This document shows, in pieces, positions 17,148-60,206 of a stretch of 64,000 nucleotides of DNA. Below the pieces are notes generated by a model. That model ran no database searches. It was not told the DNA's origin and saw only the letters and a program-made list of their open reading frames with translations. Numbering within the stretch: position 1 is the stretch's first letter; each line of letters starts with the position of its first letter. The translations under genes and the position numbers were made by a program. The DNA comes from an uncultured archaeon. Lineage in GTDB: Archaea; Aenigmatarchaeota; Aenigmatarchaeia; CG10238-14. The DNA lies in assembly GCA_964392445.1 (NCBI GenBank), contig CAYMPD010000004.1:3728-67727 (forward strand), read 5' to 3'.

Positions 17148-17375
17148 TTCACTCGTAAGAATAGTTCTGAAGAAATTTTTGCTTCTAAGATTGCTTCTAA
17201 GGGTAGAATAACTATACCGATTAGTCTTAGGGCTAAACTTGGTTGGTTAGAGGGTAAAGAAGTTAAAATTAGAGTTTCTGGGGATAGTTTAATTCTTTCT
17301 GTTAATGGTCAGAATGGTGTAAAGGTTAGCATAGATGATTGTGGCTCATCTGGACCTGGTTCAATTCCAGATTGA
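17148..17375 (+). pseudogene. AbrB/SpoVT-like DNA-binding reading frame with no canonical start; its 3' end reads through tRNA-His
   Basis: Manual translation ...SKIASKGRITIPISLRAKLGWLEGKEVKIRVSGDSLILSVNGQNGVKVSIDDCGSSGPGSIPD*; in-frame TAG at 17145. Confidence 0.55.
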
Positions 17376-17377
17376 CC
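17307..17377 (+). tRNA. tRNA-His(GTG) with an atypical acceptor/T-stem junction
   Basis: D arm GTGT/GCAT, anticodon arm GATGA-TTGTGGC-TCATC, T arm CTGG-TTCAATT-CCAG; 3' acceptor strand 2 nt short. Confidence 0.7.
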
Positions 17378-17402
17378 TTGGTAAAAATAGAGGTGAATAA
17401 AA

Positions 17403-18134
17403 ATGAAAAAAATAGGAATAATAGGTGGTATGGGACCTGAGGGAACTGCGGATTTGTACATGAAAATAGTAAGATATTACCAGGATAATTTTGGAGCAAA
17501 GTACGATAAAGATTTCCCACCGATGATGATCTACAGTGTCCCAATACCTGATCTAGTTGAAAATCTGGAAAATGAAAAAATAACTTTGGATATGTTATCT
17601 GAGGCAGTGAAGACATTGGAAAATGTTGGTTGCGATTTCCTAGTAATAGCGTGCAACACAGTCCAGTTTCTATTAGATGATCTTAGAGAATCAGTTAAAA
17701 TACCAATCCTGGGAATAGCCGAAATAAGTGCTAGGTTTGTGTCAAACAAAAGTTATAAAAAAGTGGGAATATTAGGAACAGAGGCAACTATATCTCAGAA
17801 AAAAGTTTATGAAAAAGATTTTCAGGAAATTGGGGTTGAATTAATTAAACCAATGAAAGATGACCAAGAAGAATTAACTAGAATAATAATGAACCAACTT
17901 GCAGGTGAAACAACAAAAAAGGAAAAAGATAACTTGAAGACGATAATTGAAAACTTGGAAACCCGTGGAACAGAAGCTGTTTTAATAGCATGTACAGACT
18001 TACCACCAATAATAAATCAGGAAGACTTTGATATCCCGATAATCGATTGCACACAAGTTTATGCTGATGAGGCGGCGAGATTATCTACTTTTAAATCTAA
18101 ATTCAATAATAATGTAGGAGATAATTATGTCTAA
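17403..18134 (+). CDS. Aspartate/glutamate racemase family protein (two-Cys type)
   Basis: IGIIGGMGP, IACNT and IACTDLP motifs. Confidence 0.9.
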   Translation: MKKIGIIGGMGPEGTADLYMKIVRYYQDNFGAKYDKDFPPMMIYSVPIPDLVENLENEKITLDMLSEAVKTLENVGCDFLVIACNTVQFLLDDLRESVKIPILGIAEISARFVSNKSYKKVGILGTEATISQKKVYEKDFQEIGVELIKPMKDDQEELTRIIMNQLAGETTKKEKDNLKTIIENLETRGTEAVLIACTDLPPIINQEDFDIPIIDCTQVYADEAARLSTFKSKFNNNVGDNYV

Positions 18135-19428
18135 TAAATTCCAACCACCAAGAGGGACAAGAGATTTTCTCCCAGAAGAAATGATACTTAGGGAAAAAGT
18201 GTTTGATACTGTGAAAAAGGTTTTTAAAAGATATGGTTATGATCCCGCTAAAACACCTGCTTTTGAAAATTTCGATCTTTTTGCAATGAAAGAATCAATC
18301 GGTGAAGGAGAACAGGATAAATTGTATGTATTCGAGGATAAATCTGAGCGAAAGTTAGCGTTAAGATTCGATCAAACAGTTCCATTAGCAAGATTGGTAG
18401 CCACAAATCCTCAGTTACCAAAACCTTTCAAAAGATATGAGATATCAAGAGTTTGGAGATATGAGGATACAAGAAGAGGACGTTACCGTGAATTCTGGCA
18501 ATGCGATGTTGATATAGTCGGTTCAAGAGAAATGTCGGCAGATTCTGAAATAATTGATTGTGCGTTGACAATAATGGAAGAATTGGGTTTTGAGGATTGC
18601 TACGTTAGAATTAATAACAGAAAATTATTATCAGGGATAATCCGATTTGCAGGAGTTGAAGAAAATAAAGTAATAGAAGCATTCCGAACGATTGACAAGC
18701 TCGACAAGATTGGGATTGGTGGTGTTAAAAAAGAATTGAATGAAAGGGGAATAGAAGACCAAACCGCAGAAAAAATAATCGAAATAATAGGATTAGAAGG
18801 GGAACCGAGAGAAATATTGTCCAAAGTCAAAGATTATTTTGGTGATATCAAAGAAGGTCTGGAAGGTGTGAAAGAGCTAGAAGAATTAATTAAGAATCTT
18901 GAGATGATGGGAAAAGAAAATGTTATCTTTGACATAAGTCTCGCTCGTGGTTTGGATTATTACACTTCAACAATTTTTGAGCTTATGGGAAAAGACGAGA
19001 AAATAGGTAGTCTGGCAGGAGGAGGAAGATACGATAAAATGATCGGTGCTTTTACTGGCAACAAGAAAGAAATACCTGCAGTGGGCATAGCATTAGGAAT
19101 AGAAAGAATAATTGATCTTCTGAAAGAAAGGGGAGGTATTTCCCAAAAAACTTACACCAAGGTTTTCGTAATAAATGTTAATGATCAAGTAAGGGAAAAA
19201 TCTGTAAAAATATCCCAAGAACTCCGTCAATCAGGAATAAACACCCAGAATGATATCATGGGAAGACCGCTAAGTAAACAGCTTGACTATGCCAATTCTC
19301 TAGGAATACCTTACACAGTTATAGTCGGTCCAAAAGAAGTGGAATCAAATAGATTCAAACTCAAGAACATGAAAACAGGAGAAGAAACAGAATTAACTCT
19401 CGAAAAGATAATCGAAACTCTTTCTTAG
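18127..19428 (+). CDS. hisS: Histidyl-tRNA synthetase
   Basis: PRGTRDF, LRFDQTVP, GRYREFWQCD, ARGLDYY, GGGRYD, GIERI. Confidence 0.97.
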   Translation: MSNKFQPPRGTRDFLPEEMILREKVFDTVKKVFKRYGYDPAKTPAFENFDLFAMKESIGEGEQDKLYVFEDKSERKLALRFDQTVPLARLVATNPQLPKPFKRYEISRVWRYEDTRRGRYREFWQCDVDIVGSREMSADSEIIDCALTIMEELGFEDCYVRINNRKLLSGIIRFAGVEENKVIEAFRTIDKLDKIGIGGVKKELNERGIEDQTAEKIIEIIGLEGEPREILSKVKDYFGDIKEGLEGVKELEELIKNLEMMGKENVIFDISLARGLDYYTSTIFELMGKDEKIGSLAGGGRYDKMIGAFTGNKKEIPAVGIALGIERIIDLLKERGGISQKTYTKVFVINVNDQVREKSVKISQELRQSGINTQNDIMGRPLSKQLDYANSLGIPYTVIVGPKEVESNRFKLKNMKTGEETELTLEKIIETLS

Positions 19429-34998: not shown

Positions 34999-35114
34999 CC
35001 CGTGGTAGCTCAATCGCAGAGCGCCTGGTTGTAGATGGACATAGAATACTTCTTGTTATTCTTGAATGTCTGATAGTGACCAGAAGGTTGGGAGTTCAAT
35101 TCTCTCCCATGGGA
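34999..35114 (+). tRNA. tRNA-Tyr(GTA) with a 44-nt intron at 37/38 (35035-35078)
   Basis: Acceptor CCCGTGG/CCATGGG with C1-G72 and A73; D and T arms; BHB motif around the intron. Confidence 0.92.
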
Positions 35115-35502: not shown

Positions 35503-35913
35503 ATGTGGCTTGATAAAGTGAAAAAAATACTATATGGAATTTGTTTGACTTCTACAATTTCAGGTTGTGGAGATGTGAACATGGATACAAATAGAGAAAT
35601 ATCTAGGTCCGTAACGAGGGAAATTAAAGCAGAGAAATTTGAATGTAAAGAGATTTTTTATCCTGGGGCGGGGGGAGTTTTTGCGAAAGAAATAATAATC
35701 TCAATAGAAGATGAGAATGGAGTATTGTACAGAAGTAATGCTGTATGGCCGACTGAAAATGAAAAATTTGGTTACTTTGAAGAATTATGTGGTAGAATGA
35801 GAAGAGGGAAGATAGGAGCAGGAGCGGATGTAGCTCTTTACGGAGAAATAAGACCAAGAAGAGACAGTATTTTACAAGTAGATGAAATATACCTGACTGA
35901 TCTAGGTGATTAA
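35503..35913 (+). CDS. Hypothetical protein, possible lipoprotein
   Basis: N-terminal hydrophobic stretch ending ISGC; GAGG SD. Confidence 0.6.
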   Translation: MWLDKVKKILYGICLTSTISGCGDVNMDTNREISRSVTREIKAEKFECKEIFYPGAGGVFAKEIIISIEDENGVLYRSNAVWPTENEKFGYFEELCGRMRRGKIGAGADVALYGEIRPRRDSILQVDEIYLTDLGD

Positions 35914-35914
35914 A

Positions 35915-36598
35915 ATGAAAACAATAGGAATAATAGGTGGTATGGGACCTGAAACAACTTCAAAATTTTATTTAGAGCTAATTAGGTTGTCTAGAAGGGA
36001 AATGGGTCATTTACCATCAATCATAATAGAAAGCTTACCGATTAGTTTTAGTTCGGAAGAGAATTTTGTTAAAAACGGAATTAAAGAATCTGAATTCGAG
36101 AGATTAATGATTAAATCGGCGAAACGTTTCGAGGAGATAGGGGTTAATCTGGTAGTAATCCCATCAAATACAGCCCACTTTTTCATAGAAAAAGTCAGGG
36201 AAAGCACAAGTATTCCTGTGATGAATATCATAAAGGAAACTACTAAATTGTGTCTCAAAAGGGGTTTTAGGAAAGTTGGGGTTCTGGGGACTGAAATTAC
36301 AATGAAAAATAGATTATATGAGAAAGAATTCGAGAAATTTAACATCGAAATTATTAAATTGGATAAGAAAAATCAGGAAGAATTATCAAATATAATACAT
36401 AGAATAGTCACTGGTGATACTAAAACAAAAGATCAAAAAAATTTAGAAAATCTAATGGAAATTTTAAAAAATAAGGGTGCAGAAGTAATAATTTTGGGTT
36501 GCACAGACCTTCAAAATCTAATCAAAGATAGTTCTAATATTGAAATAATCGATAGTATGCATACTCTTGTTGAAGCAACATTCAGGAAATTATTATGA
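35915..36598 (+). CDS. Aspartate/glutamate racemase family protein (first Cys replaced by Ser)
   Basis: IGIIGGMGP, IPSNTAH, LGCTDL. Confidence 0.88.
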   Translation: MKTIGIIGGMGPETTSKFYLELIRLSRREMGHLPSIIIESLPISFSSEENFVKNGIKESEFERLMIKSAKRFEEIGVNLVVIPSNTAHFFIEKVRESTSIPVMNIIKETTKLCLKRGFRKVGVLGTEITMKNRLYEKEFEKFNIEIIKLDKKNQEELSNIIHRIVTGDTKTKDQKNLENLMEILKNKGAEVIILGCTDLQNLIKDSSNIEIIDSMHTLVEATFRKLL

Positions 36599-41454: not shown

Positions 41455-42831
41455 ATGAATTTTGAAAGTATGAATATTGAGAAGTCAGTATTGGGTTCGT
41501 TAGATAATATGGGCTTTGAACAAGCAACAAGAATCCAATCAGAAACTATACCTTTGATAAAACAAGGTTATGATGTTATTGGTCAATCCAAGACAGGTTC
41601 AGGTAAAACTGCGGCTTTTGGAATACCTTTGGTTGAAAAAGTCAATCGAGGAAAAAAAGCTCAGGCATTAATCCTAGCACCTACGAGGGAATTGGCAAAA
41701 CAAATTGCAAGAGAGATTGAAAAGTTTTCGGATTTGAAAAGATTAAAAGTTCAAACCGTTTACGGTGGGGTTTCAATGAGACCTCAGATAAGGGGGTTAA
41801 AGACAGCAGAAATAATTGTTGGTACTCCCGGAAGAATTCTAGATCATTTAAGACGTGGAAATTTTGACACAAGGAATTTGGAAATCTTTGTTCTAGACGA
41901 AGCGGACAGAATGATCGATATGGGATTTATTGATGATATAAAAAAGATAGAGAGACAAATACCAAATAAAAGACAAACACTTTTGTTCAGTGCTACAATG
42001 CCAGGAAATCTAAGGAAAGTTACACAGAAATTTACAAATAATGCAAAAAGAGTTAAGACAAAAACTAAAGTAGAGGAAACCCTTTTAGAACAATATTATT
42101 GTGATGTTAAACCTAGAAAGAAGTTCTCATTGTTAATACATTTAATTCAAGAAGAAGACCCTGAACTTGCTATAGTTTTCTGTAAAACTAGGAGAGAAAC
42201 TAGCTCTGTGGCAAGGAATTTGAAAAGGAAAGGTTTAGATGCAGAAGCTTTGCATGGAGGATTATCCCAACATCAAAGAGAAAAGATAATAGGTAAATTC
42301 AAAAAAAGAAGATTAAGAATTCTGGTCGCGACAGACGTTGCATCAAGAGGTTTGGATATAGATGATATAACTCACATATTTAACTACAGGTTACCTAGTA
42401 ATGCAGAGGACTATGTGAATAGAATTGGAAGAACTGCCAGAGCTGGTAAGTCTGGTAAAGCGATATCTTTGTTAAGTTCAGATGATCATGGTTCTTTTAG
42501 AAGAATAATGAGGAGATACTCTTATGATGTTAAGAAGATGGAAAAATCTGATTTTAAGGATCTCCAATTTAATAAGAGAGCTCCTAGGAAAAGGAAATCT
42601 AGGAGGAATTATAATATTCAAGGAGGTGATAATTTGAAAGGAAAAGTTAAATGGTTCAATTCCATGAAAGGATTTGGATTCATAGAACCAGAGGGTGGTG
42701 AGAAGGACGTTTTTGTTCATCAGTCATCACTCGCGGACGAAAAAGAATACTTGAGAGAAGACGACGAAGTTGAATTTGAAGTTGAAGAAACACCAAAGGG
42801 AAAACAAGCAGTAAATGTTAGAAAAGTTTAG
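41455..42831 (+). CDS. DEAD-box RNA helicase fused in-frame to a C-terminal cold-shock domain
   Basis: Q motif, [32 protein letters not shown]; CSD GKVKWFN...GFGFI...VFVH. Confidence 0.95.
42634..42831 (+). CDS. Possible independently translated cold-shock protein (internal in-frame TTG start)
   Basis: GGAGGTGAT SD at 42622-42630, 4 nt from GGTGA to TTG; MKGKVKWFN is a typical Csp N-terminus. Confidence 0.6.
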
Positions 42832-52030: not shown

Positions 52031-52105
52031 TGGACCCGATGGGATTTGAACCCATGATCTCCTCGTCCGAAGCGAGGCGCATTATCCAAACTCTGCTACA
52101 GGTCC
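52031..52105 (-). tRNA. tRNA-Arg(TCG), no intron
   Basis: GGACCTG/CGGGTCC acceptor, CCTCG-CTTCGGA-CGAGG anticodon arm, ATGGG-TTCAAAT-CCCAT T arm. Confidence 0.95.
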
Positions 52106-52262
52106 TCTAACACTAATAATAACTGGAATTTATAAAACTTAATCTTTAACTGCTACTAGTAAGACAAAGTAAGATATATTAGTTTACATTTTTAATTAAT
52201 ATTATAGGTACCAATTTTACAATCTTTTTTTCTGGGTAGCGCAAGACTTAGAGGTTGGTCGG

Positions 52263-52436
52263 ATGAAATATTGTGAGAACTGCAAAGAATTCTTCCCTGA
52301 GAAAGACAATTACTGTCCCTTGTGCGGGAGAAAGCTAACTGAAACCAAGGGCGGGACAAAAAAAGAATCTAAAACCAACAAATCCGATGTTTTATTGGAA
52401 GATTACAACTATGAGGACACTTTTAGGGACTGGTGA
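52263..52436 (+). CDS. Zinc-ribbon microprotein (57 aa)
   Basis: Manual translation MKYCENCK...NYCPLCGRKL...; not in the ORF track. Confidence 0.7.
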   Translation: MKYCENCKEFFPEKDNYCPLCGRKLTETKGGTKKESKTNKSDVLLEDYNYEDTFRDW

Positions 52437-52491
52437 TCTTTGACTGGATTTACGCCCATTTTCTTAGATGATTCTACTTCTTGTGGATGGG

Positions 52492-52941
52492 TTAATTGTT
52501 CCATTCCAATTTATCTCCTACTTGAATGTTGTTCTCCTTTGAAAAATTCGCATTTACCTCTAGAACATATTTAGTGGGTTCGTTTGAGGGATAGCTTTCA
52601 CAAGGATCTGATTCACATGGCTGAATGTTTTGCTTTATTTCTGTTATTGTACCATTTTCCGCGATAAATATCATGTCCAGAGGTATTAGTGTATTTTTCA
52701 TCCAGAATGAAACGTTTCGTTCGTTTTCGAAAATGAATAACATACCGGAATTTTGTGGTAAACTTTTTCGGTACATCAAACCTTTACTTCTTTCTTTGGG
52801 ATCATCGGCTATTTCTATATCAATCTCAACTTTCCCACCCTCACTGATTATGGAAAATGGTATAACTTTTTTTGTTATACATCCACAGAGAACTACCAAT
52901 AAGGCGATTATAATCAACTGAGAGAGTTTTTTCAGTTTCAC
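52492..52941 (-). CDS. DUF192 family lipoprotein
   Basis: GLMYR, GMLFIF, FWMKNTLIPLDMIF, YVLEVN. Confidence 0.9.
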   Translation of the reverse strand: MKLKKLSQLIIIALLVVLCGCITKKVIPFSIISEGGKVEIDIEIADDPKERSKGLMYRKSLPQNSGMLFIFENERNVSFWMKNTLIPLDMIFIAENGTITEIKQNIQPCESDPCESYPSNEPTKYVLEVNANFSKENNIQVGDKLEWNN

Positions 52942-53143: not shown

Positions 53144-53234
53144 CGCCCCGAGCAGGACTCGAACCTGCGGCCTTCTGGTTAACAGCTTCAGCCCTGAATT
53201 CAGGTCAACTGCTCTACCACTGAGCTACCGGGGC
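53144..53234 (-). tRNA. tRNA-Asn(GTT) copy 1 with a 19-nt intron at 30/31 (53187-53205)
   Basis: GCCCCGG/TCGGGGC acceptor, G73, CTGTTAA loop; BHB helix CAGT/GCTG. Confidence 0.9.
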
Positions 53235-53235
53235 A

Positions 53236-54540
53236 TCAAGGTCTCATTCTACCCATGGTTCTTGGAAATGGAACTGTTTCACGAATATTTTCAATTCCAC
53301 AAATCCACATAACAACTCTTTCCAATCCCATACCAAATCCTGAGTGAGGAACCGAACCATACTTCCTTAAATCCATATACCATTGGTAATCCTTTTTCTT
53401 CAAGCCAAATTCTTTAATTCTCTTTTTCAGTGCTTTTGGATTATCTATTCTTTGACTTCCACCTATTATCTCACCATAACCTTCGGGGGCAATAATGTCG
53501 TTTGAAAGAGTTAATTTTGGATTTTCAGGATCAGGTTCCATGTAAAAAGCCTTAATTTTTGTTGGAAATCTGTGGATAATTATCGGTTTTTCAAACTGCT
53601 TGGAGATAAATCTTTCTTGAGGAGCACCAAAATCGTCCAGATATTCAATATCAAAATCGTTCTTTTGTAACAACTCTATGGTCTCATCATAACTTATCCT
53701 TGGGAATGGTGGTTCTATTTTTTCGAGTTTTTCGATATCTCTTCCTAGTTCTTTTAATTGTCTTTTATTCTTCTTTAACACTCCTTTAACTATCGCTGTA
53801 ATCAATCCTTCTTGAAGTTTAATATTATCTTCAAAGTCATAGAAAGCCATCTCAGGCTCAAGCATCCAGAATTCGGCCAAATGCTTTGGTGTATGAGACT
53901 TTTCCGCGCGGAAAGTAGGACCAAAGCAATAAACCTTTCCTAATGATGGAACAACAGCCTCACTGTATAACTGACCACTTTGGGCAAGATAAACCTTACC
54001 ACCAGGGTATTTTGTTTCAAATAATGTAGTACTTTCCTCACAACAGGTTGGAGTCAATATAGGAGTGTCTACTCGATAAAAACCTTGAGAATCCAAGAAA
54101 TCAATCGCACTTTTAATAACGGTTGATCTTATCCTAAGAATAGGTCTTTGACTTGGGCTTCTTAACCACAAGTGACGGTTACTTAGGAGAAAATCGATTC
54201 CATGGTCTTTTTTACCTAGAGGGTAATCGTCTGCTACCTGGAGAACCTTAATATCATTAATCTCTATCTCATACCCATCTGGAGCTCTTTCATCTTCTTT
54301 TACTTTACCTTCGATTATAACCGAGGATTCTTGTGTTAATTTCTCAGCATCTTCAAACGTTTTTTTGTCAACATTATCTTTATGGATTGTTGCCTGAATG
54401 GTCCCAGACCCGTCTCGGATGATGAAGAATTGAACACCACCACTTGACCTCAGATTCTCTACCCATCCACCTAGTTTGACTTTGCCTTTGGTTTTATCAT
54501 CGAGTATATTTTCTATTTTGTTCAGTTTCATGATTATCAA
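53236..54540 (-). CDS. asnS: Asparaginyl-tRNA synthetase
   Basis: OB fold, NRHLWLR, QSGQLY, FRAEKS, APEGYGEIIGGSQR, YGSVPHSGFGMGLER. Confidence 0.93.
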   Translation of the reverse strand: MIIMKLNKIENILDDKTKGKVKLGGWVENLRSSGGVQFFIIRDGSGTIQATIHKDNVDKKTFEDAEKLTQESSVIIEGKVKEDERAPDGYEIEINDIKVLQVADDYPLGKKDHGIDFLLSNRHLWLRSPSQRPILRIRSTVIKSAIDFLDSQGFYRVDTPILTPTCCEESTTLFETKYPGGKVYLAQSGQLYSEAVVPSLGKVYCFGPTFRAEKSHTPKHLAEFWMLEPEMAFYDFEDNIKLQEGLITAIVKGVLKKNKRQLKELGRDIEKLEKIEPPFPRISYDETIELLQKNDFDIEYLDDFGAPQERFISKQFEKPIIIHRFPTKIKAFYMEPDPENPKLTLSNDIIAPEGYGEIIGGSQRIDNPKALKKRIKEFGLKKKDYQWYMDLRKYGSVPHSGFGMGLERVVMWICGIENIRETVPFPRTMGRMRP

Positions 54541-54613
54541 TTAGAATTTGTTAAGATAAGTTTAATAAATTTTGGACTAAGATTATTAATAACTGAAAGA
54601 GAATAACTTTTTT

Positions 54614-54934
54614 ATGTCAACGAACGGGCTACCTTATGATATTATGAATGCATCAACACGTGTTAGAACTCATCCAATGATTTATATGATTGAGGAAAAA
54701 GAAGATAGAGGTTTAACATATATTGAAGTAATTGTCCCTGGGGGAAGTTATTGTGGTACTGCAGCAAAATCTAGATTAGCAAAAGGGGACCTTTCTCCAG
54801 AAACTAGTAGTCTAGATAGATTAGGAACTAGTGTTTTTCGATATTATCCTAAGACAGCCCAAGTTCAGAATTTAAGTAATAGGATAACTAGAGTAATGCA
54901 AGAAGCAGGATTTTTACTAATCTCTCGGAGTTAA
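54614..54934 (+). CDS. Hypothetical protein
   Basis: ORF only. Confidence 0.55.
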   Translation: MSTNGLPYDIMNASTRVRTHPMIYMIEEKEDRGLTYIEVIVPGGSYCGTAAKSRLAKGDLSPETSSLDRLGTSVFRYYPKTAQVQNLSNRITRVMQEAGFLLISRS

Positions 54935-55002
54935 ATATATGAGACATTTGTATCATTTTTACTTGAATACATATTAAAACTCGTCCACCAATTTCAATTA
55001 AT

Positions 55003-55485
55003 ATGATTGGAAGGACTAGAAATGGATATGGAGGAACTTTAGGGCCGAGAGAAAGTACAGAGAAATTTTCATTAGCATGGAGTTTATCTGCTCCTATTTC
55101 AAGAGACCAAGATTTTGCGATCTATGAAGTTCCTATGGGGAAAAGTGATGGTTATAGTTCACTCGTTAGACAAATGTTTGAAAGAGCAATGGAAGGTGCT
55201 CATGTAACAGAACCTTGTAAAGAATTCTTAAGATCTATGTTCTATGTTTCTCTTAGGCAGGGAGTACCTCCAGTTAGGTGGATACCAGTAGAAAAATTTG
55301 GAATAGACCTTTCAAAAGAAAGATATGGGATATTTGGACCCGAAGAGAATTTAGGAGAGATTGAAGGAGAGCTAATAAGATTCCACGTTCATATTATAGA
55401 AGCTTATAGGATACCAGAATTAAGAGAAAGGGGGATGGAACTTAACAGAAGATGGAGAAGAGATTGGAATGAAAGATATGGTTGA
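55003..55485 (+). CDS. Hypothetical protein
   Basis: ORF only. Confidence 0.6.
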   Translation: MIGRTRNGYGGTLGPRESTEKFSLAWSLSAPISRDQDFAIYEVPMGKSDGYSSLVRQMFERAMEGAHVTEPCKEFLRSMFYVSLRQGVPPVRWIPVEKFGIDLSKERYGIFGPEENLGEIEGELIRFHVHIIEAYRIPELRERGMELNRRWRRDWNERYG

Positions 55486-55499
55486 AATTAAAAATAAAT

Positions 55500-55775
55500 T
55501 TAGTCAATTTCTTGTCTTTGCAGAAGTCTTTGATTGATATCAAAATAACCAACAGTTAAAACATATTTCCCATCTAATACCGTTCTGTAATCTTCTACAG
55601 TATAATTTCTTTCCTCTACCTCATCTAATAATAATCTTGAAACTTCACCTTCCTTATTTAAAAAATATGTAACATTCCAGGTATCTAACATTTGTCCTAT
55701 CCCAGTGTCAGAACAATCCAATACCCCTACTTTATCAAAATGAATTTTTATCATGCTGAAATCATTATTAAACAA
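55500..55775 (-). CDS. Hypothetical protein
   Basis: ORF only. Confidence 0.5.
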   Translation of the reverse strand: MFNNDFSMIKIHFDKVGVLDCSDTGIGQMLDTWNVTYFLNKEGEVSRLLLDEVEERNYTVEDYRTVLDGKYVLTVGYFDINQRLLQRQEID

Positions 55776-55819
55776 AACTTAAATTTCTTACTTTAGACTT
55801 AAAAAAGAAAAAAATTAAA

Positions 55820-55914
55820 CGCCTCGGGTCGGACTCGAACCGACGGCCTTCTGGTTAACAGCTTCAGCCCTGAAAAAGTCAGGTCAACTGCTCTACCTAC
55901 TGAGCTACCGAGGC
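55820..55914 (-). tRNA. tRNA-Asn(GTT) copy 2 with a 22-nt intron at 30/31 (55863-55884)
   Basis: GCCTCGG/CCGAGGC acceptor, G73, same anticodon arm and BHB as copy 1. Confidence 0.9.
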
Positions 55915-57309
55915 TTGAATAATTTCACGAATTTCTCTTGGGTTTCCCGCTGATTTTATTTCTTTTAAAACCTGTCCAACCAAAAAATCCAATGCTTTTT
56001 CTTCTCCAGATTTATAATCTTTCACTGCCTCTTTGTTTTTCTGTAGTATTTTATCAACTATTTTTTTAAGTTCTTGTTTACTCACCATTTTTAGACCTTT
56101 TTTACTTAAATATTCTTCGGGGTATTCACCAGTCATGGTTATTTCTTTAATCATTTCTTTTCCTAATCTTTTCGGGATTTCACCTTTATCCATCATTTCA
56201 AGGAATTTAGCAAAGTTTTCTACAGATATTTTGGAGTTTTTAATCCTGATCCCCTGATAATTCAAGCACTTCAGAAGATGAGTAATCATCCATTTAGCAA
56301 TCATCTGGGGATTTTCTAATAATTCACAGCATTCTTCGAAGAATCTAGAAAAATCCTTCCCTGTGTAAACTATCACTTTGGCTTGATAATCTGATAAATC
56401 ATACTTTTCCTGGTACCTTTCCACTAAATGATCAGGTAATTCGGGCAGAGTGGTCTTTATTCCTTGTTTCCATTCATTATTAATTTCGATTTTAGTCAGG
56501 TCTGGCTCAAAAATGTACCCATAATCCTCTTCCATCTCCTTTGTTCTCAGAGTTTTAGTTATTCCTTGAGATTCATCAAATCCTCTTGTTTCTCTTTCAA
56601 CCTTCCCTCCATTTCTAAGTACACTTTTTTGCCTAACAACCTCATAATTCAACGCTTTTTCAATCTTAGCAAAACCACTCATATTCTTGATTTCAACCCT
56701 TTTCCCGCCTTCTATTGATATGTTGACATCTACACGCATAGATCCTTCAAGTGAAGAGTCATAAACTCCAAGATATTCAAGCATAGTCGAAAGTTTAGTC
56801 AAGAATTCCCTTACCTCTTTCGGGTCTCTAAAATCGGGTTCGGTTACTATCTCACATAAGGGGGTCCCAGAGCGGTTATAATCGATTAGAACATACTTGG
56901 ATGTAGTTATGTCTCCACCTACATGAACAAGTTTAGCAGGGTCTTCCTCCAAGTGAATCCTAGTAATGTTAATTTTTTTCTCCTCTCCGTTTGAGTTAAT
57001 TTTTAAGTAACCTTTTCTTGCGAGGGGAATTTCAAATTGAGTTATCTGGAAGTTCTTTGCCATATCGGGATAAAGATAGGATTTTCTAGAGAAGAACATT
57101 TTTGTTAATATTTCACAATTTAACGCATGAGCAATTGATATACCATAATCCAACGCTTTCTTGTTGACTTTTGGTTTTGATCCTGGGAAACCAAGACATA
57201 TAGGACAGGTAGTAGAGTTAGGTTTAGAGTCTCTATAATCCGTGGAACAGGAGCAAAATAACTTTGATTTTGTGTTTAACTGTACATGAATTTCTAATCC
57301 TATTTTCAT
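55897..57309 (-). CDS. gatB: Asp/Glu-tRNA amidotransferase subunit B
   Basis: IGLEIHVQL, YPDMAKNFQITQ, HLEED, DYNRSGTPLCEIVT, MRVDVNIS, VEIKN. Confidence 0.96.
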   Translation of the reverse strand: MKIGLEIHVQLNTKSKLFCSCSTDYRDSKPNSTTCPICLGFPGSKPKVNKKALDYGISIAHALNCEILTKMFFSRKSYLYPDMAKNFQITQFEIPLARKGYLKINSNGEEKKINITRIHLEEDPAKLVHVGGDITTSKYVLIDYNRSGTPLCEIVTEPDFRDPKEVREFLTKLSTMLEYLGVYDSSLEGSMRVDVNISIEGGKRVEIKNMSGFAKIEKALNYEVVRQKSVLRNGGKVERETRGFDESQGITKTLRTKEMEEDYGYIFEPDLTKIEINNEWKQGIKTTLPELPDHLVERYQEKYDLSDYQAKVIVYTGKDFSRFFEECCELLENPQMIAKWMITHLLKCLNYQGIRIKNSKISVENFAKFLEMMDKGEIPKRLGKEMIKEITMTGEYPEEYLSKKGLKMVSKQELKKIVDKILQKNKEAVKDYKSGEEKALDFLVGQVLKEIKSAGNPREIREIIQASVAQ

Positions 57310-58730
57310 TTCATCACAGGTTGGTTTTTGTGGTAATCAGTATTTTGTTCAAATGTGTGAGCGACCTGAATCATCTTTTTCTCTTGTAAATGATCAGCAA
57401 TTATATGCATCCCAACTGGTAAACCCTCTGAGAAACCTCCTGGAACAGATATCATCGGAACACCTGCTAAGTTTGGGGGGACTGTTAGAATGTCGAGCAT
57501 ATAGGTCTGAAGTGGGGTCAAATCCTCAATTTCCGAGAATTTTGGTGGTAGAATTGGCATGGTCGGAGAAACAAGCACATCATACTTTTTGAAAGCTTTC
57601 TTGAAGTCTTGAATCACTAGTGTCCTTAATTTCATCGCTTTTAGGTAGAATTGATCCCTATATCCAGCCATTCTAGCATAAGTTCCCATGATTATCCGTC
57701 TTTTAGCTTCTTGTCCAAAACCTTCTTTTCTTACCCTTGAGAAATAATCGTTGAAACTCTCTCCTGTTTTAATTTCATTTTCCAAACCATACCTTAATCC
57801 ACACAGTTTCGCAAGGTTGGTAGAAGTTTCAGACATAGCAATTATGTAATAACTAGGTAAAGCAACATCTGTGTGTGGGAGAGAGCATTCTTCGTATTTA
57901 GCACCTAAATCTTCTAGAAGTTTAATGTTTTTCCAAATTTTGTTCTTGATTTTTTCGTTTACTCCACCGCTGAAATATTCTTTCGGAACCCCAATCTTCA
58001 TACCTTTGACATCATTTTTCCAGTAATCAGTATAATCCTCTTTTTCAACATCAAGTGAAGTAGAATCAATGGAATCATGACCAGAAATTACCGAAAATAA
58101 CAGTGAAGAATCCTCAACTGTTTTACCAATTGTTCCAATCTTATCCAGACTATTAGCATAACTAATCAAACCCCATCTAGAAACCGTTCCATAAGTTGGT
58201 GTTATCCCCACGGTATTTGTAAAAGATGTAGGACAACTTATAGACCCACCAGTGCTCTCGGCAATAGCAATATGTGGAAAATCAGAAATACTTGTCAAGC
58301 AACCCGCTCCCCCTGAACTTCCTCCACACGTTCGTTCGATATCCCAAGGATTTTTAGGAAATCCAAACGGAGTGTTAATGTTAAAAACACCATGACCAAA
58401 TTGATCCATACTAGTTTTCCCAATTATTACTCCACCCTCTTCTTTAACTCTTCTGGTAACATAAGAATCAAACGGAGGAACATATTTATGAAGAATCCTT
58501 GAGCCTGCAGTAGTTTTAAGTCCTTTTGTGCATATATTGTCTTTAACTGAGATTGGAAGGCCGTAAAGCTTCCCTTTTTTAAGCGATTTTACGTCGATTT
58601 TTTCGTTTATTGTAACAAATGGTAAATATTTCTCTTGAATTTTTCGAGTTTTTTCCAGAGTTTTAGTTAAGAAATCCTCTAAATTTAATTCCCCATTCCT
58701 GACTTTTGTTAAATACTCTTTCAGTTCCAT
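57306..58730 (-). CDS. gatA: Asp/Glu-tRNA amidotransferase subunit A
   Basis: ISVKDN, GGSSGG, STGGS amidase signature. Confidence 0.95.
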   Translation of the reverse strand: MELKEYLTKVRNGELNLEDFLTKTLEKTRKIQEKYLPFVTINEKIDVKSLKKGKLYGLPISVKDNICTKGLKTTAGSRILHKYVPPFDSYVTRRVKEEGGVIIGKTSMDQFGHGVFNINTPFGFPKNPWDIERTCGGSSGGAGCLTSISDFPHIAIAESTGGSISCPTSFTNTVGITPTYGTVSRWGLISYANSLDKIGTIGKTVEDSSLLFSVISGHDSIDSTSLDVEKEDYTDYWKNDVKGMKIGVPKEYFSGGVNEKIKNKIWKNIKLLEDLGAKYEECSLPHTDVALPSYYIIAMSETSTNLAKLCGLRYGLENEIKTGESFNDYFSRVRKEGFGQEAKRRIIMGTYARMAGYRDQFYLKAMKLRTLVIQDFKKAFKKYDVLVSPTMPILPPKFSEIEDLTPLQTYMLDILTVPPNLAGVPMISVPGGFSEGLPVGMHIIADHLQEKKMIQVAHTFEQNTDYHKNQPVMK

Positions 58731-59009
58731 CTAAACAGCCCTTGGACCTTTAAAGTAGTCATCTTCTTTATTTTCAGCATTTCCTAACGGATCCCAATCC
58801 CATTCACAAGTTTCATCTTTCCTCCAAACATTCTTAATTTCCAGAGGCTGAAATGAAGTTTCAATCTCTTCCGTATCAACTTCTTCTATTTTTCTAAACG
58901 CTTCCAGAACATCATCTATCTGTTTTGTAAATTCCTTAACTTCTTCATCTGTCAAATCCAACCTAGCTATCTCAGCAACATGTCTAATTACGTCTTCTGA
59001 TACTACCAT
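58731..59009 (-). CDS. gatC: Asp/Glu-tRNA amidotransferase subunit C
   Basis: HVAEIARL, WRKD, YFKGP; precedes gatA. Confidence 0.92.
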   Translation of the reverse strand: MVVSEDVIRHVAEIARLDLTDEEVKEFTKQIDDVLEAFRKIEEVDTEEIETSFQPLEIKNVWRKDETCEWDWDPLGNAENKEDDYFKGPRAV

Positions 59010-59189: not shown

Positions 59190-59798
59190 TTGGTATATAG
59201 AGTAAGAAAAGCTGAAATGAGTGACTTAGACGCAATTTTATCTCTAGAAAGAAGAAATTTCGAACCTCTTACTCAGGCTTCTGATAAAACAGTTAGAGAA
59301 AGATTTGAGAGTTACCAAGAAGGTTTTTTTATTGCGGAAATTGATTCTAATCCTGTTGGTTATATATTTGTTGCACCTTATCGTCATATTTGGGAAGATA
59401 GAGAAGAGATAAATTCTCATGAAGATTTAATACTTCCAACTCGGTATATAGATGGTGAATCAAAGATTATTCAATTTGTTTCAATTGCAGTTCTGAACAA
59501 ACATAGAGTGACCAATTTAAGTCAAAATGGATACATAGGAGAATCACCTTCACAACTTTTATTGACTAGTGCCGTAGAACATGCGATGGAGAGAGGAGCC
59601 GATCAAATATATGTTCTTGCTGTTACACCACAGGGAAATAACATTTTAAAAAATAGTGGTTTTAAGTTATATGAAGAATTTGATATAGATGATGAAGAAA
59701 TAAGATTATGGGGTTATGATTTAAGAGAAGATGGAGAATCTTTAAAGAGAGGAATTGAAGATTATTATGAAAGAAAACTATCTCCTCAACTCGTTTAA
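59190..59798 (+). CDS. GNAT family N-acetyltransferase
   Basis: RKAEMSDL, FFIAE..GYI, SIAV motif pattern. Confidence 0.75.
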   Translation: MVYRVRKAEMSDLDAILSLERRNFEPLTQASDKTVRERFESYQEGFFIAEIDSNPVGYIFVAPYRHIWEDREEINSHEDLILPTRYIDGESKIIQFVSIAVLNKHRVTNLSQNGYIGESPSQLLLTSAVEHAMERGADQIYVLAVTPQGNNILKNSGFKLYEEFDIDDEEIRLWGYDLREDGESLKRGIEDYYERKLSPQLV

Positions 59799-60206
59799 GA
59801 CAACGTGAGTACTGGTCTTCTCAATACCTTCCATTTGGAATAAGTTATTTATAAAGTTTGACAACTCTTCTCTATTTTTAAATCTAGTGACTATTATCAT
59901 ATCCTTATCTCCAGTGATTCCGTATATGGCAAAAACATTTTTGAATTTGATTAGTTTATTAGCGATTTCAAATTGCTTTTCCCGGTGAGCAACTATTTCT
60001 ATTATAGCTGGCAAATCATAACCTATCTTCTCATAATTTAAAATGGCTTTATAGTCCCTGATAATACCATCTGATTCAAGTTTTTTAATTCTTTCATAAG
60101 TGGAGCTTATTGACAAACCGATTTTTTTTGCTATTTTTTTAAGCTTTTGTTTACAGTTTTTTTCTAACTCCTCTAATATTTCAAGATTTTTTTCATCTAA
60201 ATCCAT
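59778..60206 (-). CDS. Lrp/AsnC transcriptional regulator
   Basis: LDEKNLEIL...RIKKLESDGIIRDY; ITGDKD. Confidence 0.92.
   Translation of the reverse strand: MDLDEKNLEILEELEKNCKQKLKKIAKKIGLSISSTYERIKKLESDGIIRDYKAILNYEKIGYDLPAIIEIVAHREKQFEIANKLIKFKNVFAIYGITGDKDMIIVTRFKNREELSNFINNLFQMEGIEKTSTHVVLNELRR

What the first reader, a model, noticed from the sequence alone, without database searches (positions are those of the whole stretch)
53144..59009. Two different tRNA-Asn(GUU) genes, each welded to one of the two Asn-tRNA pathways
Seen: asnS stops 1 nt before tRNA-Asn copy 1, and gatC-gatA-gatB runs into tRNA-Asn copy 2. The copies share the anticodon arm, variable loop and intron position. They differ in the acceptor stem (GCCCCGG vs GCCTCGG), T stem (GCAGG vs GTCGG) and D loop (7 vs 8 nt). 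Established: Asn-tRNA is made directly by AsnRS or indirectly by a non-discriminating AspRS plus GatCAB, and GatCAB discrimination involves D-loop and elbow features. Inference: these may be pathway-dedicated isodecoders, allowing a switch between scavenged Asn and de novo transamidation. Reduced archaea usually carry single-copy tRNAs.
Basis: partly seen in the sequence, partly recalled or inferred. Interest (0 to 1): 0.75.

Follow-up and report, generated by a model that had tools for sequence, protein, structure and literature searches.

The report
Two tRNA-Asn genes, one per pathway
A small archaeon (Aenigmarchaeota) keeps two slightly different asparagine-tRNA genes, one attached to each of the two enzyme systems that load asparagine onto tRNA; relatives share the layout, but whether each tRNA serves only its own pathway is untested.

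Summary
Both genes are tRNA-Asn(GUU), each split by a non-canonical intron between nt 30 and 31 with a bulge-helix-bulge (BHB) splice motif. That intron is why ARAGORN miscalls them. asnS ends 1 nt before copy 1. gatB runs 18 nt into copy 2 and stops at a UAG formed by U16-A17-G18 of the tRNA D loop.

The layout is neither strain-specific nor an artefact. Across Aenigmarchaeota contigs (GatB identity down to 59%, AsnRS down to 63-64%), tRNA-Asn follows gatB in 8 loci and follows asnS in 7 loci. Four contigs carry both modules side by side. Relatives at the same syntenic locus have lost one whole module, enzyme plus its tRNA. A deeper relative has aspS(ND-type)-gatCAB-tRNA-Asn.

Only one position separates the two classes. 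A17 is present in 8/8 gatB-linked copies (8-nt D loop) and absent in 7/7 asnS-linked copies (7-nt D loop).

Both copies share every published determinant for AsnRS and archaeal GatCAB. I therefore favour two ancient paralogues acting as the last genes of two self-contained Asn-tRNA modules, probably interchangeable as substrates. Strict pathway dedication remains possible (about 0.2) and can be tested directly.

The parts
58731..59009 (-). gatC (92 aa)
   Evidence: TIGR00135 gatC scores 71.3 bits against a cut-off of 47.1. It abuts gatA.
57306..58730 (-). gatA (474 aa)
   Evidence: TIGR00132 gatA scores 478.4 bits, just under the 481.1 cut-off. It has the amidase fold and sits between gatC and gatB, overlapping gatB by 4 nt. 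It is 82-85% identical to the GatA in L085, L086 and L088.
55897..57309 (-). gatB (470 aa). Its last 5 codons and its TAG stop lie inside tRNA-Asn copy 2.
   Evidence: NF004012 GatB scores 596 bits against a cut-off of 338. The C-terminus reads EIIQ-ASVAQ*, with GCC TCG GTA GCT CAG TAG being tRNA nt 1-18. The same overlap, with the stop at the D-loop UAG, is found in L085, L086, L088 and L160 (18 nt) and in L087 (36 nt, because of a D-loop intron).
55820..55914 (-). tRNA-Asn(GUU) copy 2, gatB-linked, with the 8-nt D loop AGUAGGUA. 5' exon 55914-55885, intron 55884-55863 (22 nt, between nt 30 and 31), 3' exon 55862-55820.
   Evidence: Rfam RF00005 scores 49.6 bits. The spliced cloverleaf has only a G27.A43 mismatch. 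The BHB motif is verified. A T-rich tract follows the gene (TTTAATTTTTTTCTTTTTT).
54614..55775 (.). 1.3-kb spacer between the two modules, holding three orphan ORFs (54614-54934 +, 55003-55485 +, 55500-55775 -).
   Evidence: No Pfam or NCBIfam hits and no tblastn homologue in any related locus. In L086 and L087 the spacer between the tRNA and asnS is about 45 nt. In L088 it holds a LAGLIDADG-like ORF.
53236..54540 (-). asnS, asparaginyl-tRNA synthetase. 434 aa from the TTG start; 431 aa from the ATG at 54531, which is the form called in the database.
   Evidence: NF003037 AsnRS scores 541.7 bits (cut-off 414), against 366 bits for the archaeal AspRS model. Pfam finds an OB anticodon-binding domain plus a class II core. 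The stop TGA at 53238-53236 is 1 nt before the tRNA.
53144..53234 (-). tRNA-Asn(GUU) copy 1, asnS-linked, with the 7-nt D loop AGUGGUA (no nt 17). 5' exon 53234-53206, intron 53205-53187 (19 nt, between nt 30 and 31), 3' exon 53186-53144.
   Evidence: Rfam RF00005 scores 49.4 bits. The spliced cloverleaf and BHB are verified. Orthologues sit right after asnS in L081, L084, L086, L087, L088 and L161.
59778..60206 (-). Lrp/AsnC-family regulator upstream of the gatCAB module (possible amino-acid-responsive control; inference only).
   Evidence: Pfam AsnC_trans_reg 51 bits, HTH_24 and HTH_AsnC-type. Homologues at 56-60% identity lie upstream of gatCAB in L085 and L087.
52031..52941 (-). Synteny anchor downstream: DUF192 gene (52492-52941) and tRNA-Arg(TCG) (52031-52105).
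   Evidence: Pfam DUF192 128.7 bits; tRNA-Arg 66.8 bits. The same order, asnS-tRNA-Asn-DUF192-tRNA-Arg, occurs in L081, and partly in L161, L086 and L087.

Best explanation
The window, from a DPANN archaeon of the Aenigmarchaeota, carries two adjacent, self-contained modules for making Asn-tRNA-Asn. Each module ends in its own tRNA-Asn(GUU) gene.

Module 1 is gatC-gatA-gatB-tRNA-Asn (8-nt D loop). It is the older arrangement in this phylum; deeper relatives have aspS(ND-type)-gatCAB-tRNA-Asn. It serves the indirect route, in which Asp is placed on tRNA-Asn and then amidated by GatCAB. Module 2 is asnS-tRNA-Asn (7-nt D loop). It serves direct charging with free asparagine.

The second tRNA is a within-lineage duplicate of the first. 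The two share the unusual purine-purine 27:43 mismatch, the anticodon arm, the variable loop and the 30/31 intron. The duplicate lost nt 17 once, early in the clade.

Both pre-tRNAs are matured by BHB-dependent splicing between nt 30 and 31. In this genome they have essentially no spacer from the upstream ORF, so they are most likely made from the same transcript as the enzyme genes.

Because both tRNAs carry all known recognition elements for AsnRS, AspRS(ND) and archaeal GatCAB, each can probably be used by either route. What the linkage provides is co-expression and, above all, co-inheritance: whichever module a lineage keeps, it keeps a tRNA-Asn gene.

Shown: gene identities, intron position and BHB, overlap, conservation, module-wise presence or absence, and the single class-specific nucleotide.

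Inferred: co-transcription, the origin by duplication, functional interchangeability, and use of the indirect route as the cell's way to make Asn when none can be scavenged.
For: - Gene identities.
- Intron position and BHB: 7/7 introns at 30/31 have a 4-bp central helix and the bulges UG|A and AA|G. L089 keeps all four central pairs and differs from the window at three of them, two by changes on both strands.
- Intron-less orthologues give exactly the predicted mature sequence.
- Both modules lie side by side in the window, L086, L087 and L088.
- At the same syntenic locus (IscS-NifU-...-CobA-RPB9-HTH ... DUF192 / tRNA-Arg / DEAD / CSD), only the asnS module is present in L081 and L084, and only the gatCAB module in L085.
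- Further gatB-tRNA-Asn links occur in L160, L089 and L165. L165 has aspS (NF003483, 484 bits) directly upstream of gatC, and GatD (516 bits) nearby.
- Several other Aenigmarchaeota AspRS proteins sit on contigs of the same length as GatB-bearing contigs.
- Shared clade-specific tRNA features in both paralogues: the 27:43 mismatch in 14/15 sequences, the same anticodon loop, and a 5-nt variable loop with G46. tRNA-Asn of other lineages (L098, L137) has a normal 27:43 pair.
- asnS relatives outside the clade (Bathyarchaeia L162/L163, distant Aenigmatarchaeota L164) have no tRNA after asnS. The asnS-linked tRNA was therefore not imported with asnS.
- No TATA-like box lies 25-35 nt upstream of the window copies, whereas free-standing tRNAs and spaced orthologues have one.
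- Literature: archaeal GatCAB ignores the 1:72 pair and reads the variable loop (G46, U47, length 5), the D loop and nt 49 (PMC1635274, PMC2811023, PMC2330236). Dual routes with a single tRNA-Asn type are common in bacteria, and there the indirect route often supplies Asn (PMC2330236, PMC4206432).
Against: - The one-nucleotide D-loop difference has been kept without exception across a deep clade (8/8 vs 7/7). It persists even though the introns of the two copies in L086 resemble each other more than they resemble their orthologues, which suggests exchange between copies only 13 nt away from nt 17.
- D-loop length is the kind of feature amidotransferases measure, so some specialisation cannot be excluded.
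- Co-transcription is not shown. Spaced orthologues (L084, L087, L089, L165) have TATA-like boxes of their own.
- If copy 2 is cut out of a gatCAB transcript by RNase P, the gatB message loses its stop codon. That is awkward for a simple co-expression model.
- The genome's AspRS, GatDE and asparagine synthetase status are unknown, because none lies in the window.
- Loss of contiguous genes together needs no functional coupling.
Confidence: 0.5

Rival explanations
1. Pathway-dedicated isodecoders. The 8-nt D-loop tRNA-Asn is the substrate of ND-AspRS plus GatCAB, where the GatB tail docks on the elbow. The 7-nt form is poor for that route and is charged by AsnRS. This would allow separate control of de novo and scavenging routes, or would keep Asp-tRNA-Asn away from translation.
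For: - Perfect class split at nt 17 (8/8 vs 7/7).
- The gatB-linked elbow is nearly invariant: D loop AGUAGGUA (AGCAGGUA in L165) and T loop UUCGAGY in 8/8. The asnS-linked T loop varies (UUCAARY in 5/7).
- Amidotransferases sense D-loop size and the tertiary core. One extra D-loop base costs about 10-fold in a bacterial GatCAB, and the M. thermautotrophicus GatCAB uses the D loop (PMC1635274, PMC2811023).
- The difference persists despite apparent intron exchange between the copies in L086.
- An Lrp/AsnC regulator is conserved next to the gatCAB module.
- There are precedents for isoacceptor-specific enzymes in indirect routes, such as H. pylori GluRS2 with tRNA-Gln (PMC2777447).
Against: - All published determinants are identical in the two window copies: anticodon, G73, 5-nt variable loop with G46, U12-A23 and nt 49.
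- The known D-loop antideterminant is an extra base at 20A/20B, not at 17.
Dedication would therefore need discrimination by AspRS as well, and no element for that is visible.
- L082/L083 have asnS without its tRNA.
- A single ancestral indel in two orthologous lineages gives the same 8/8 vs 7/7 pattern with no selection.
Confidence: 0.2
2. Frozen accident plus genome compaction. A tandem tRNA duplication happened when asnS landed next to the resident gatCAB-tRNA-Asn. Spacers then shrank in a small genome. The adjacency and overlap have no regulatory or functional meaning, and the tRNAs are expressed from their own promoters.
For: - Spacing varies from an 18-nt overlap to 36 nt among relatives, and TATA-like boxes precede the tRNA wherever there is a spacer.
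- The region between the modules tolerates insertions: orphan ORFs in the window and a LAGLIDADG ORF in L088.
- Modules are lost freely.
- The other tRNAs in the window show no general rule of cognate linkage; tRNA-Tyr is not near TyrRS.
Against: - The gatB-tRNA-Asn link holds down to 59% GatB identity, and the asnS-tRNA-Asn link down to 63-64% AsnRS identity, in a phylum with otherwise fluid gene order.
- The gatB stop codon is placed inside the tRNA in 6 of 8 lineages.
- A reduced genome kept a second tRNA-Asn gene for a long time.
Confidence: 0.2
3. asnS and copy 1 arrived together as a foreign cassette or an integrated element that targeted the tRNA-Asn gene.
For: - The nearest AsnRS relatives outside the clade are Bathyarchaeia (about 64%) and bacteria (57% or less), which is compatible with lateral acquisition of asnS.
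- tRNA genes are common integration sites (general knowledge).
Against: - Copy 1 shares the clade-specific 27:43 mismatch, anticodon arm, variable loop and intron with copy 2.
- Bathyarchaeia asnS has no adjacent tRNA.
- There is no integrase, and there are no partial-tRNA direct repeats; both copies are full-length and divergent.
- The pair is conserved with only about 45 nt between tRNA and asnS in L086 and L087.
Confidence: 0.05

Closest known systems
Dual Asn-tRNA routes in Thermus thermophilus, Deinococcus radiodurans, Bdellovibrio, Legionella and Staphylococcus aureus (AsnRS plus ND-AspRS/GatCAB)
   Same: AsnRS and GatCAB are encoded together. In those bacteria the indirect route is kept as the (often only) way to make asparagine, while AsnRS uses free Asn (PMC2330236, PMC4206432).
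   Different: Those are bacteria, and one tRNA-Asn type serves both routes. Here the host is an archaeon, although the older literature states that archaea encode GatCAB when they lack AsnRS (PMC2811023). The two routes are adjacent, and each ends in its own tRNA-Asn paralogue. The AspRS and asparagine synthetase status of this genome are unknown.
aspS-gatCAB clusters / the Asn-transamidosome (ND-AspRS:tRNA-Asn:GatCAB)
   Same: L165 and several other archaeal loci (L109-L117, L159) put aspS(ND-type) directly before the amidotransferase genes (gatC-gatA-gatB in L165, gatA-gatB in the others). The tRNA is the scaffold of the complex (PMC9499178).
   Different: In the Aenigmarchaeota clade the substrate tRNA gene itself is the last element of the cluster and overlaps gatB. 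In the window aspS is no longer in the cluster.
pylT-pylS-pylBCD cassette (tRNA-Pyl gene next to its synthetase and amino-acid synthesis genes); from my own knowledge
   Same: A tRNA gene is physically joined to the enzymes that load it, forming a unit that can be gained or lost as a whole.
   Different: pylT is an orthogonal tRNA for a new amino acid. Here both tRNAs read the same standard codons and look mutually replaceable.
Isoacceptor-specific enzymes in indirect routes (Helicobacter pylori GluRS2 with tRNA-Gln)
   Same: A precedent for duplicated components being divided between direct-type and indirect-type charging (PMC2777447).
   Different: There the enzyme is duplicated and the tRNAs have different anticodons or identities. 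Here the tRNA is duplicated, and the two copies differ consistently by one D-loop nucleotide.
Non-canonical BHB introns of archaeal tRNAs (Thermoproteales, DPANN); from my own knowledge of Marck & Grosjean 2003 and Fujishima et al. 2010/2011
   Same: The intron lies outside 37/38 in a relaxed bulge-helix-bulge motif. Presence is patchy among close relatives, and some genes carry several introns (L086, L087).
   Different: Nothing unusual for the class. The position is 30/31, and the central helix uses nt 25-28, so the last D-stem pair must open.

Membership tests
tRNA-Asn(GUU), archaeal elongator tRNA | Cloverleaf with 7/4/5/5-bp stems and a match to the tRNA covariance model | tested here: met
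   RF00005 scores 49.4 and 49.6 bits against a gathering score of 29. After splicing, all stems pair except 27:43. Intron-less orthologues score 68-76 bits.
tRNA-Asn(GUU), archaeal elongator tRNA | Anticodon GUU in a 7-nt loop with U33, plus discriminator G73 (the AsnRS identity set) | tested here: met
   The loop is CUGUUAA and nt 73 is G in both copies. ARAGORN calls the intron-less orthologues tRNA-Asn(gtt). The identity set is taken from PMC9499178.
Archaeal BHB intron | Two 3-nt bulges separated by a 4-bp helix, with the splice sites after the 2nd bulge nucleotide | tested here: met
   Central helix C25-A26-G27-U28 pairs with GCUG of the intron, and the bulges are UG|A and AA|G, in 7/7 genes. 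L089 has CGAC/GUCG, still fully paired and changed at three pairs (two on both strands). The splice-site rule is from my own knowledge.
Archaeal BHB intron | Flanking helices on both sides (strict hBHBh') | tested here: inconclusive
   The intron-side helix has 5-6 bp in the window but 2-3 bp in L086 and L089. The exon-side helix has only 2 contiguous pairs, so this is a relaxed motif. The MFE fold of the isolated arm prefers a different helix, which is not conserved in L089.
Asparaginyl-tRNA synthetase (class IIb) | Passes the AsnRS equivalog model and beats the AspRS models; OB anticodon-binding domain plus class II core | tested here: met
   NF003037 scores 541.7 bits (cut-off 414), against NF003483 at 366 bits. 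PF01336 and PF00152 are present.
GatCAB amidotransferase | All three subunits present, in the order gatC-gatA-gatB | tested here: met
   GatB 596 bits (cut-off 338) and GatC 71.3 bits (cut-off 47.1). GatA scores 478.4 bits against a cut-off of 481.1, marginally below, but its position and 82-85% identity to the neighbours' GatA support the call.
GatCAB amidotransferase | Acts on Asp-tRNA-Asn rather than Glu-tRNA-Gln | not testable with these tools
   Indirect support only. Archaeal GatCAB is an Asp-AdT (PMC2811023, PMC9499178). Relatives encode GatD (L165 516 bits; the L085 Pfam context) and aspS(ND-type) next to gatCAB.
Dual-route Asn organisms (Thermus/Deinococcus type) | A non-discriminating AspRS in the same genome | not testable with these tools
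   There is no AspRS paralogue in the 64-kb window. Archaeal-type 'aspartate--tRNA(Asn) ligase' is common in the phylum, but none can be traced to this genome. The contig extension failed.
Dual-route Asn organisms (Thermus/Deinococcus type) | No AsnA/AsnB, so that the indirect route is the only source of Asn | not tested
   This needs the whole genome, and only the window was available.
Pathway-dedicated tRNA isodecoders | Class-specific sequence features conserved across lineages | tested here: met
   Only one feature qualifies: A17 is present in 8/8 gatB-linked copies and absent in 7/7 asnS-linked copies.
Pathway-dedicated tRNA isodecoders | The copies differ in known determinants for the competing enzymes | tested here: not met
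   The anticodon loop, G73, the 5-nt variable loop AGGCC, U12-A23 and G49 are identical in the two window copies, judged against the determinants in PMC1635274 and PMC2811023.
Pathway-dedicated tRNA isodecoders | Differential charging or transamidation | not testable with these tools
   This needs biochemistry.

The most novel reading that the evidence does not exclude
The two tRNA-Asn paralogues are functionally separated channels. Nucleotide 17 of the D loop sets the elbow geometry so that the transamidation machinery (ND-AspRS/GatCAB) works on the 8-nt form, and AsnRS mainly on the 7-nt form. A reduced archaeon could then run and regulate de novo tRNA-dependent Asn synthesis and Asn scavenging independently. 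This would be the first case of one standard amino acid served by two pathway-specific isodecoders with the same anticodon.
Probability: 0.2. Interest if true: 0.8.

Novelty: new variant of a known kind. Interest (0 to 1): 0.55.

Why it matters
Direct and indirect routes to Asn-tRNA are textbook alternatives. Archaea have been described as having one or the other, and where bacteria have both, a single tRNA-Asn type is shared.

This clade shows both routes in one locus, each with its own conserved tRNA paralogue, and it shows lineages that have dropped either module. That gives a natural series (both modules, only direct, only indirect) in which three questions can be asked: how a lineage switches between routes, whether a one-nucleotide D-loop change is enough to bias a tRNA toward an amidotransferase or a synthetase, and how a tRNA gene overlapping the stop codon of an essential enzyme gene is expressed and processed.

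There is also a practical warning. Standard tRNA finders mis-assign these genes (as Ser or undetermined), so tRNA-Asn may be reported missing in such genomes.

Tried and rejected
1. Brute-force removal of every possible intron followed by ARAGORN. It was uninformative, because ARAGORN's own intron tolerance returned mostly Ser/Phe calls. The intron was settled instead by hand parsing, intron-less orthologues and the BHB check.

2. The genome-contig scan with AsnRS. It returned only hits at 57% identity or less, mostly bacterial, with no close relative and no synteny.

3. MFE folding of the anticodon arm plus intron. It gives a 7-bp helix AGCAGUU/AGCUGUU rather than the BHB. That helix breaks in L089 while the BHB is kept there with changed pairs, so I rejected the MFE structure as the splice substrate.

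4. The idea that cognate tRNA-synthetase linkage is a general habit of this genome. tRNA-Tyr (34999-35114) is not next to TyrRS. tRNA-His lies about 750 nt upstream of HisRS. One more case is not a rule.

5. The idea that an integrated element or imported cassette accounts for copy 1. Rejected; see the rival explanations.

6. Locating the genome's own AspRS. tblastn in the window found nothing. A homologue search with the L165 AspRS found many Aenigmarchaeota AspRS proteins, but none on the window's 90,088-nt contig. Extending the contig failed.

7. Homology of the spacer ORFs to the ORFs flanking asnS in L082. There is none, so L082 cannot be placed relative to a gatCAB module.

8. Namgoong et al. 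2007, the primary paper on archaeal GatCAB tRNA recognition, is not held. I relied on later papers that summarise it.

Full report
**1. What is in the window**

On the minus strand, 59009 to 52031, the order is as follows:
- gatC (58731-59009)
- gatA (57306-58730)
- gatB (55897-57309)
- a 95-nt tRNA (55820-55914)
- a 1.3-kb spacer with three orphan ORFs
- asnS (53236-54540)
- a 91-nt tRNA (53144-53234)
- a DUF192 gene
- tRNA-Arg(TCG)

NCBIfam identifies AsnRS (541.7 bits, cut-off 414, and clearly above the 366 bits of the archaeal AspRS model). It also identifies GatB (596 bits), GatA (478.4 bits, a hair under its 481.1 cut-off) and GatC (71.3 bits). Rfam finds both tRNAs at about 49.5 bits. 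ARAGORN calls them tRNA-Ser(tga) and tRNA-???(gact). The window has about 35% G+C. It encodes an archaeal TBP. Its AsnRS and GatB have closest named relatives in Candidatus Aenigmarchaeota, a DPANN phylum.

**2. The tRNAs are tRNA-Asn(GUU) with a non-canonical intron**

No intron at the usual 37/38 position gives a sensible anticodon loop. Removing 19 nt (copy 1, 53205-53187) or 22 nt (copy 2, 55884-55863) between nt 30 and 31 gives GUUGG-CUGUUAA-CCAGA. That is anticodon GUU, U33, discriminator G73, and a normal cloverleaf whose only non-pair is G27.A43.

Two independent checks support this.
- Relatives carry intron-less genes at the same places, with exactly this mature sequence pattern, and ARAGORN calls them tRNA-Asn(gtt). 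These are L081, L084, L085, L087, L160 and L161.
- The splice sites sit in a bulge-helix-bulge motif. Exon nt 25-28 (CAGU) pair with intron GCUG. The bulges are UG|A and AA|G, and an intron hairpin follows. All seven genes with this intron have the motif. In L089 the central helix is CGAC/GUCG, still fully paired but changed at three of its four pairs, two of them by changes on both strands.

The minimum-energy fold of the isolated arm prefers another helix. That helix is not conserved in L089, so I set it aside.

**3. How the tRNAs are joined to the enzyme genes**

The asnS stop (TGA, 53238-53236) is followed by one T and then tRNA nt 1. gatB reads GCC UCG GUA GCU CAG UAG, which is tRNA nt 1-18. 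Its last five residues (ASVAQ) and its stop codon therefore lie inside the tRNA. The UAG is U16-A17-G18 of the D loop. The same stop-in-the-D-loop arrangement occurs in L085, L086, L088 and L160 (18 nt) and in L087 (36 nt, because a D-loop intron intervenes).

Free-standing tRNAs of the window have a TATA-like box about 20-35 nt upstream, and so do orthologues that have a spacer. The two window copies do not. Copy 2 is followed by a long T-rich tract. Co-transcription with the upstream genes is therefore likely here, but it is not shown.

**4. Conservation**

| Locus | GatB identity | AsnRS identity | Arrangement |
|---|---|---|---|
| L086 | 79% | 76% | gatCAB-tRNA-asnS-tRNA-tRNA-Arg |
| L087 | 72% | 63-64% | same as L086 |
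| L088 | 92% | 87% | same, with a LAGLIDADG-like ORF in the spacer |
| L085 | 81% | – | gatCAB-tRNA-Asn, then a GatD-like gene; no asnS |
| L160 | 68% | – | gatCAB-tRNA-Asn |
| L089 | 59% | – | gatCAB-tRNA-Asn |
| L165 | 59% | – | aspS-gatC-gatA-gatB-tRNA-Asn, with GatD downstream |
| L081 | – | 85% | asnS-tRNA-Asn, no gatCAB |
| L084 | – | 78% | asnS-tRNA-Asn, no gatCAB |
| L161 | – | 73% | asnS-tRNA-Asn, no gatCAB |

In L165, aspS matches the archaeal aspartate--tRNA(Asn) ligase model at 484 bits and GatD scores 516 bits.

The flanking genes are shared: IscS-NifU-ferredoxin-FeS assembly-CobA-RPB9-like-HTH upstream, and DUF192 / tRNA-Arg / DEAD / CSD downstream. L081/L084 (asnS module only), L085 (gatCAB module only) and the window/L086/L087/L088 (both modules) are therefore states of one locus.

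One relative, L082/L083 (81% AsnRS), has asnS followed by a 90-aa ORF and no tRNA. Outside the clade there is no tRNA after asnS in Bathyarchaeia (64% AsnRS) or in a distant Aenigmatarchaeota genome (62%). A different lineage (L098, 46% GatB) has tRNA-Asn-gatA-gatB-asnS. Duplication as a strain-specific event or an assembly artefact is excluded.

**5. What distinguishes the two tRNA classes**

I spliced 15 genes and put them in register. Exactly one column separates the classes. A17 is present in all 8 gatB-linked genes (D loop AGUAGGUA; AGCAGGUA in L165). It is absent in all 7 asnS-linked genes (AGYGGUA).

The acceptor-stem and T-stem differences seen in the window vary within each class, so they are not class markers. 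The gatB-linked T loop is UUCGAGY in 8/8; the asnS-linked one is UUCAARY in 5/7.

Both classes share several features:
- the clade-specific purine-purine 27:43 mismatch (14/15);
- the anticodon loop;
- a 5-nt variable loop with G46;
- the U12-A23 pair;
- G73.

tRNA-Asn of other lineages (L098, L137) has an 8-nt D loop and a normal 27:43 pair. The simplest history is this: gatCAB-tRNA-Asn (8 nt) is ancestral in the phylum, and the asnS-linked gene is an internal duplicate that lost nt 17 once.

**6.

The literature confirms the premise. Bacterial GatCAB measures D-loop length, and an added U20A costs about 10-fold (PMC1635274). Archaeal GatCAB ignores the 1:72 pair and reads the tertiary core: the D loop, nt 49, and a 5-nt variable loop with G46 and U47 (PMC1635274, PMC2811023, PMC2330236).

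However, every one of these published elements is the same in the two window copies, and the known D-loop antideterminant lies on the other side of the loop (20A/20B). AsnRS identity (GUU, G73; PMC9499178) is also shared. If AspRS charged the 7-nt form and GatCAB rejected it, Asp would be misincorporated. Strict dedication would therefore need discrimination at two enzymes, and no sequence basis for that is visible.

In bacteria that have both routes, about 30% of surveyed genera, one tRNA-Asn type serves both. The indirect route is often kept there as the only source of asparagine (PMC4206432, PMC2330236). A perfect 8/8 versus 7/7 split is also what two old orthologous lineages differing by one indel would show without any selection.

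Three points favour some specialisation.
- The difference has never been erased, although in L086 the two introns resemble each other more than they resemble their orthologues. That hints at exchange between the copies only 13 nt away from nt 17.
- The gatB-linked elbow is almost invariant.
- An Lrp/AsnC-type regulator is conserved next to the gatCAB module.

**7. Verdict**

The best-supported reading (0.5) is two self-contained Asn-tRNA modules, each ending in a tRNA-Asn paralogue. The tRNAs are probably interchangeable. The linkage gives co-expression and guarantees that a lineage losing either module keeps a tRNA-Asn gene.

Pathway-dedicated isodecoders (0.2) and a neutral frozen accident (0.2) remain open. 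Import of the tRNA together with asnS is unlikely (0.05).

Not established: the genome's AspRS type, GatDE and asparagine synthetases (none lies in the window), the transcription units, and any biochemical preference.

I rate it a new variant of known systems and of moderate interest. It offers a clean experiment: two transcripts, three enzymes, and one nucleotide to swap.

Noticed in passing
window 17308-19428 (+): tRNA-His(GTG) (17308-17377) is followed by an Asp/Glu racemase gene (17403-18134) and then HisRS (18127-19428). This is a second case in the window of a tRNA lying close to its own synthetase.
   Followed up: partly
window 34999-35114 (+) and 35906-36598 (+): An intron-containing tRNA (116 nt) that ARAGORN missed. 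By eye it is tRNA-Tyr(GUA) with a long intron after the anticodon. No TyrRS is nearby. A second Asp/Glu racemase paralogue lies about 800 nt downstream, so both racemase copies in the window sit just after a tRNA gene.
   Followed up: partly
window 54614-55775; L088 3111-3860: The spacer between the two modules is an insertion hot spot. The window has three orphan ORFs with no family hit and no homologue in relatives. L088 has a LAGLIDADG-like ORF at the same place. L086 and L087 have only about 45 nt.
   Followed up: partly
L086 11396-11499; L087 6799-6899; L165 6995-7086: gatB-linked tRNA-Asn genes in these relatives carry a further short intron right after the anticodon loop (about 38/39), ending in a shared ...ACAG(C)AGAAA. 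L087 also has an 18-nt intron inside the D loop. Introns come and go between close relatives, giving none, one or two per gene.
   Followed up: partly
L086 11396-11499 vs 12842-12929: The 30/31 introns of the two paralogues within L086 (ACUUUUAUAGGCUGAA and ACCUUUAUGGGCUGAA) resemble each other more than either resembles its orthologue in the window. This suggests gene conversion or intron transfer between the copies, while the D-loop difference 13 nt away stays intact.
   Followed up: no
window 53144-53234, 55820-55914 and all related tRNA-Asn genes: A purine-purine mismatch at 27:43 (G.A, or A.G in L160 and L089) is conserved at the top of the anticodon stem in 14 of 15 tRNA-Asn genes of this clade. 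It is absent in tRNA-Asn of other lineages (L098, L137).
   Followed up: partly
window 41455-42831 (+); L085 8209-9679; L086 13373-14846: The window encodes a single 458-aa protein with DEAD-box helicase and cold-shock domains. In L085 and L086 the helicase and the CSD are called as two ORFs overlapping by about 50 nt, and in L082 as two adjacent genes. This could be a fusion, a frameshift, or a difference in gene calling.
   Followed up: no
L098 4353-8649: An unrelated archaeal lineage (GatB 46% identical) has tRNA-Asn (8-nt D loop)-gatA-gatB-asnS. Clustering of both Asn routes with the tRNA is therefore not confined to the window's clade. Several other archaeal loci (L109-L117, L159) have aspS(ND-type)-gatA-gatB.
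   Followed up: partly
L085 15727-15797; L098 12476-12644: Rfam hits in related loci that are unrelated to the finding: DUF3800-X RNA (72.6 bits) in L085 and RT-16 RNA (73.7 bits) in L098.
   Followed up: no
window 53236-54540: The closest AsnRS relatives outside the clade are Bathyarchaeia (about 64%). In representative genomes the best hits are bacterial (Bacillota and others, 57% or less) plus one Heimdallarchaeota. This is compatible with lateral acquisition of asnS by this lineage.
   Followed up: partly
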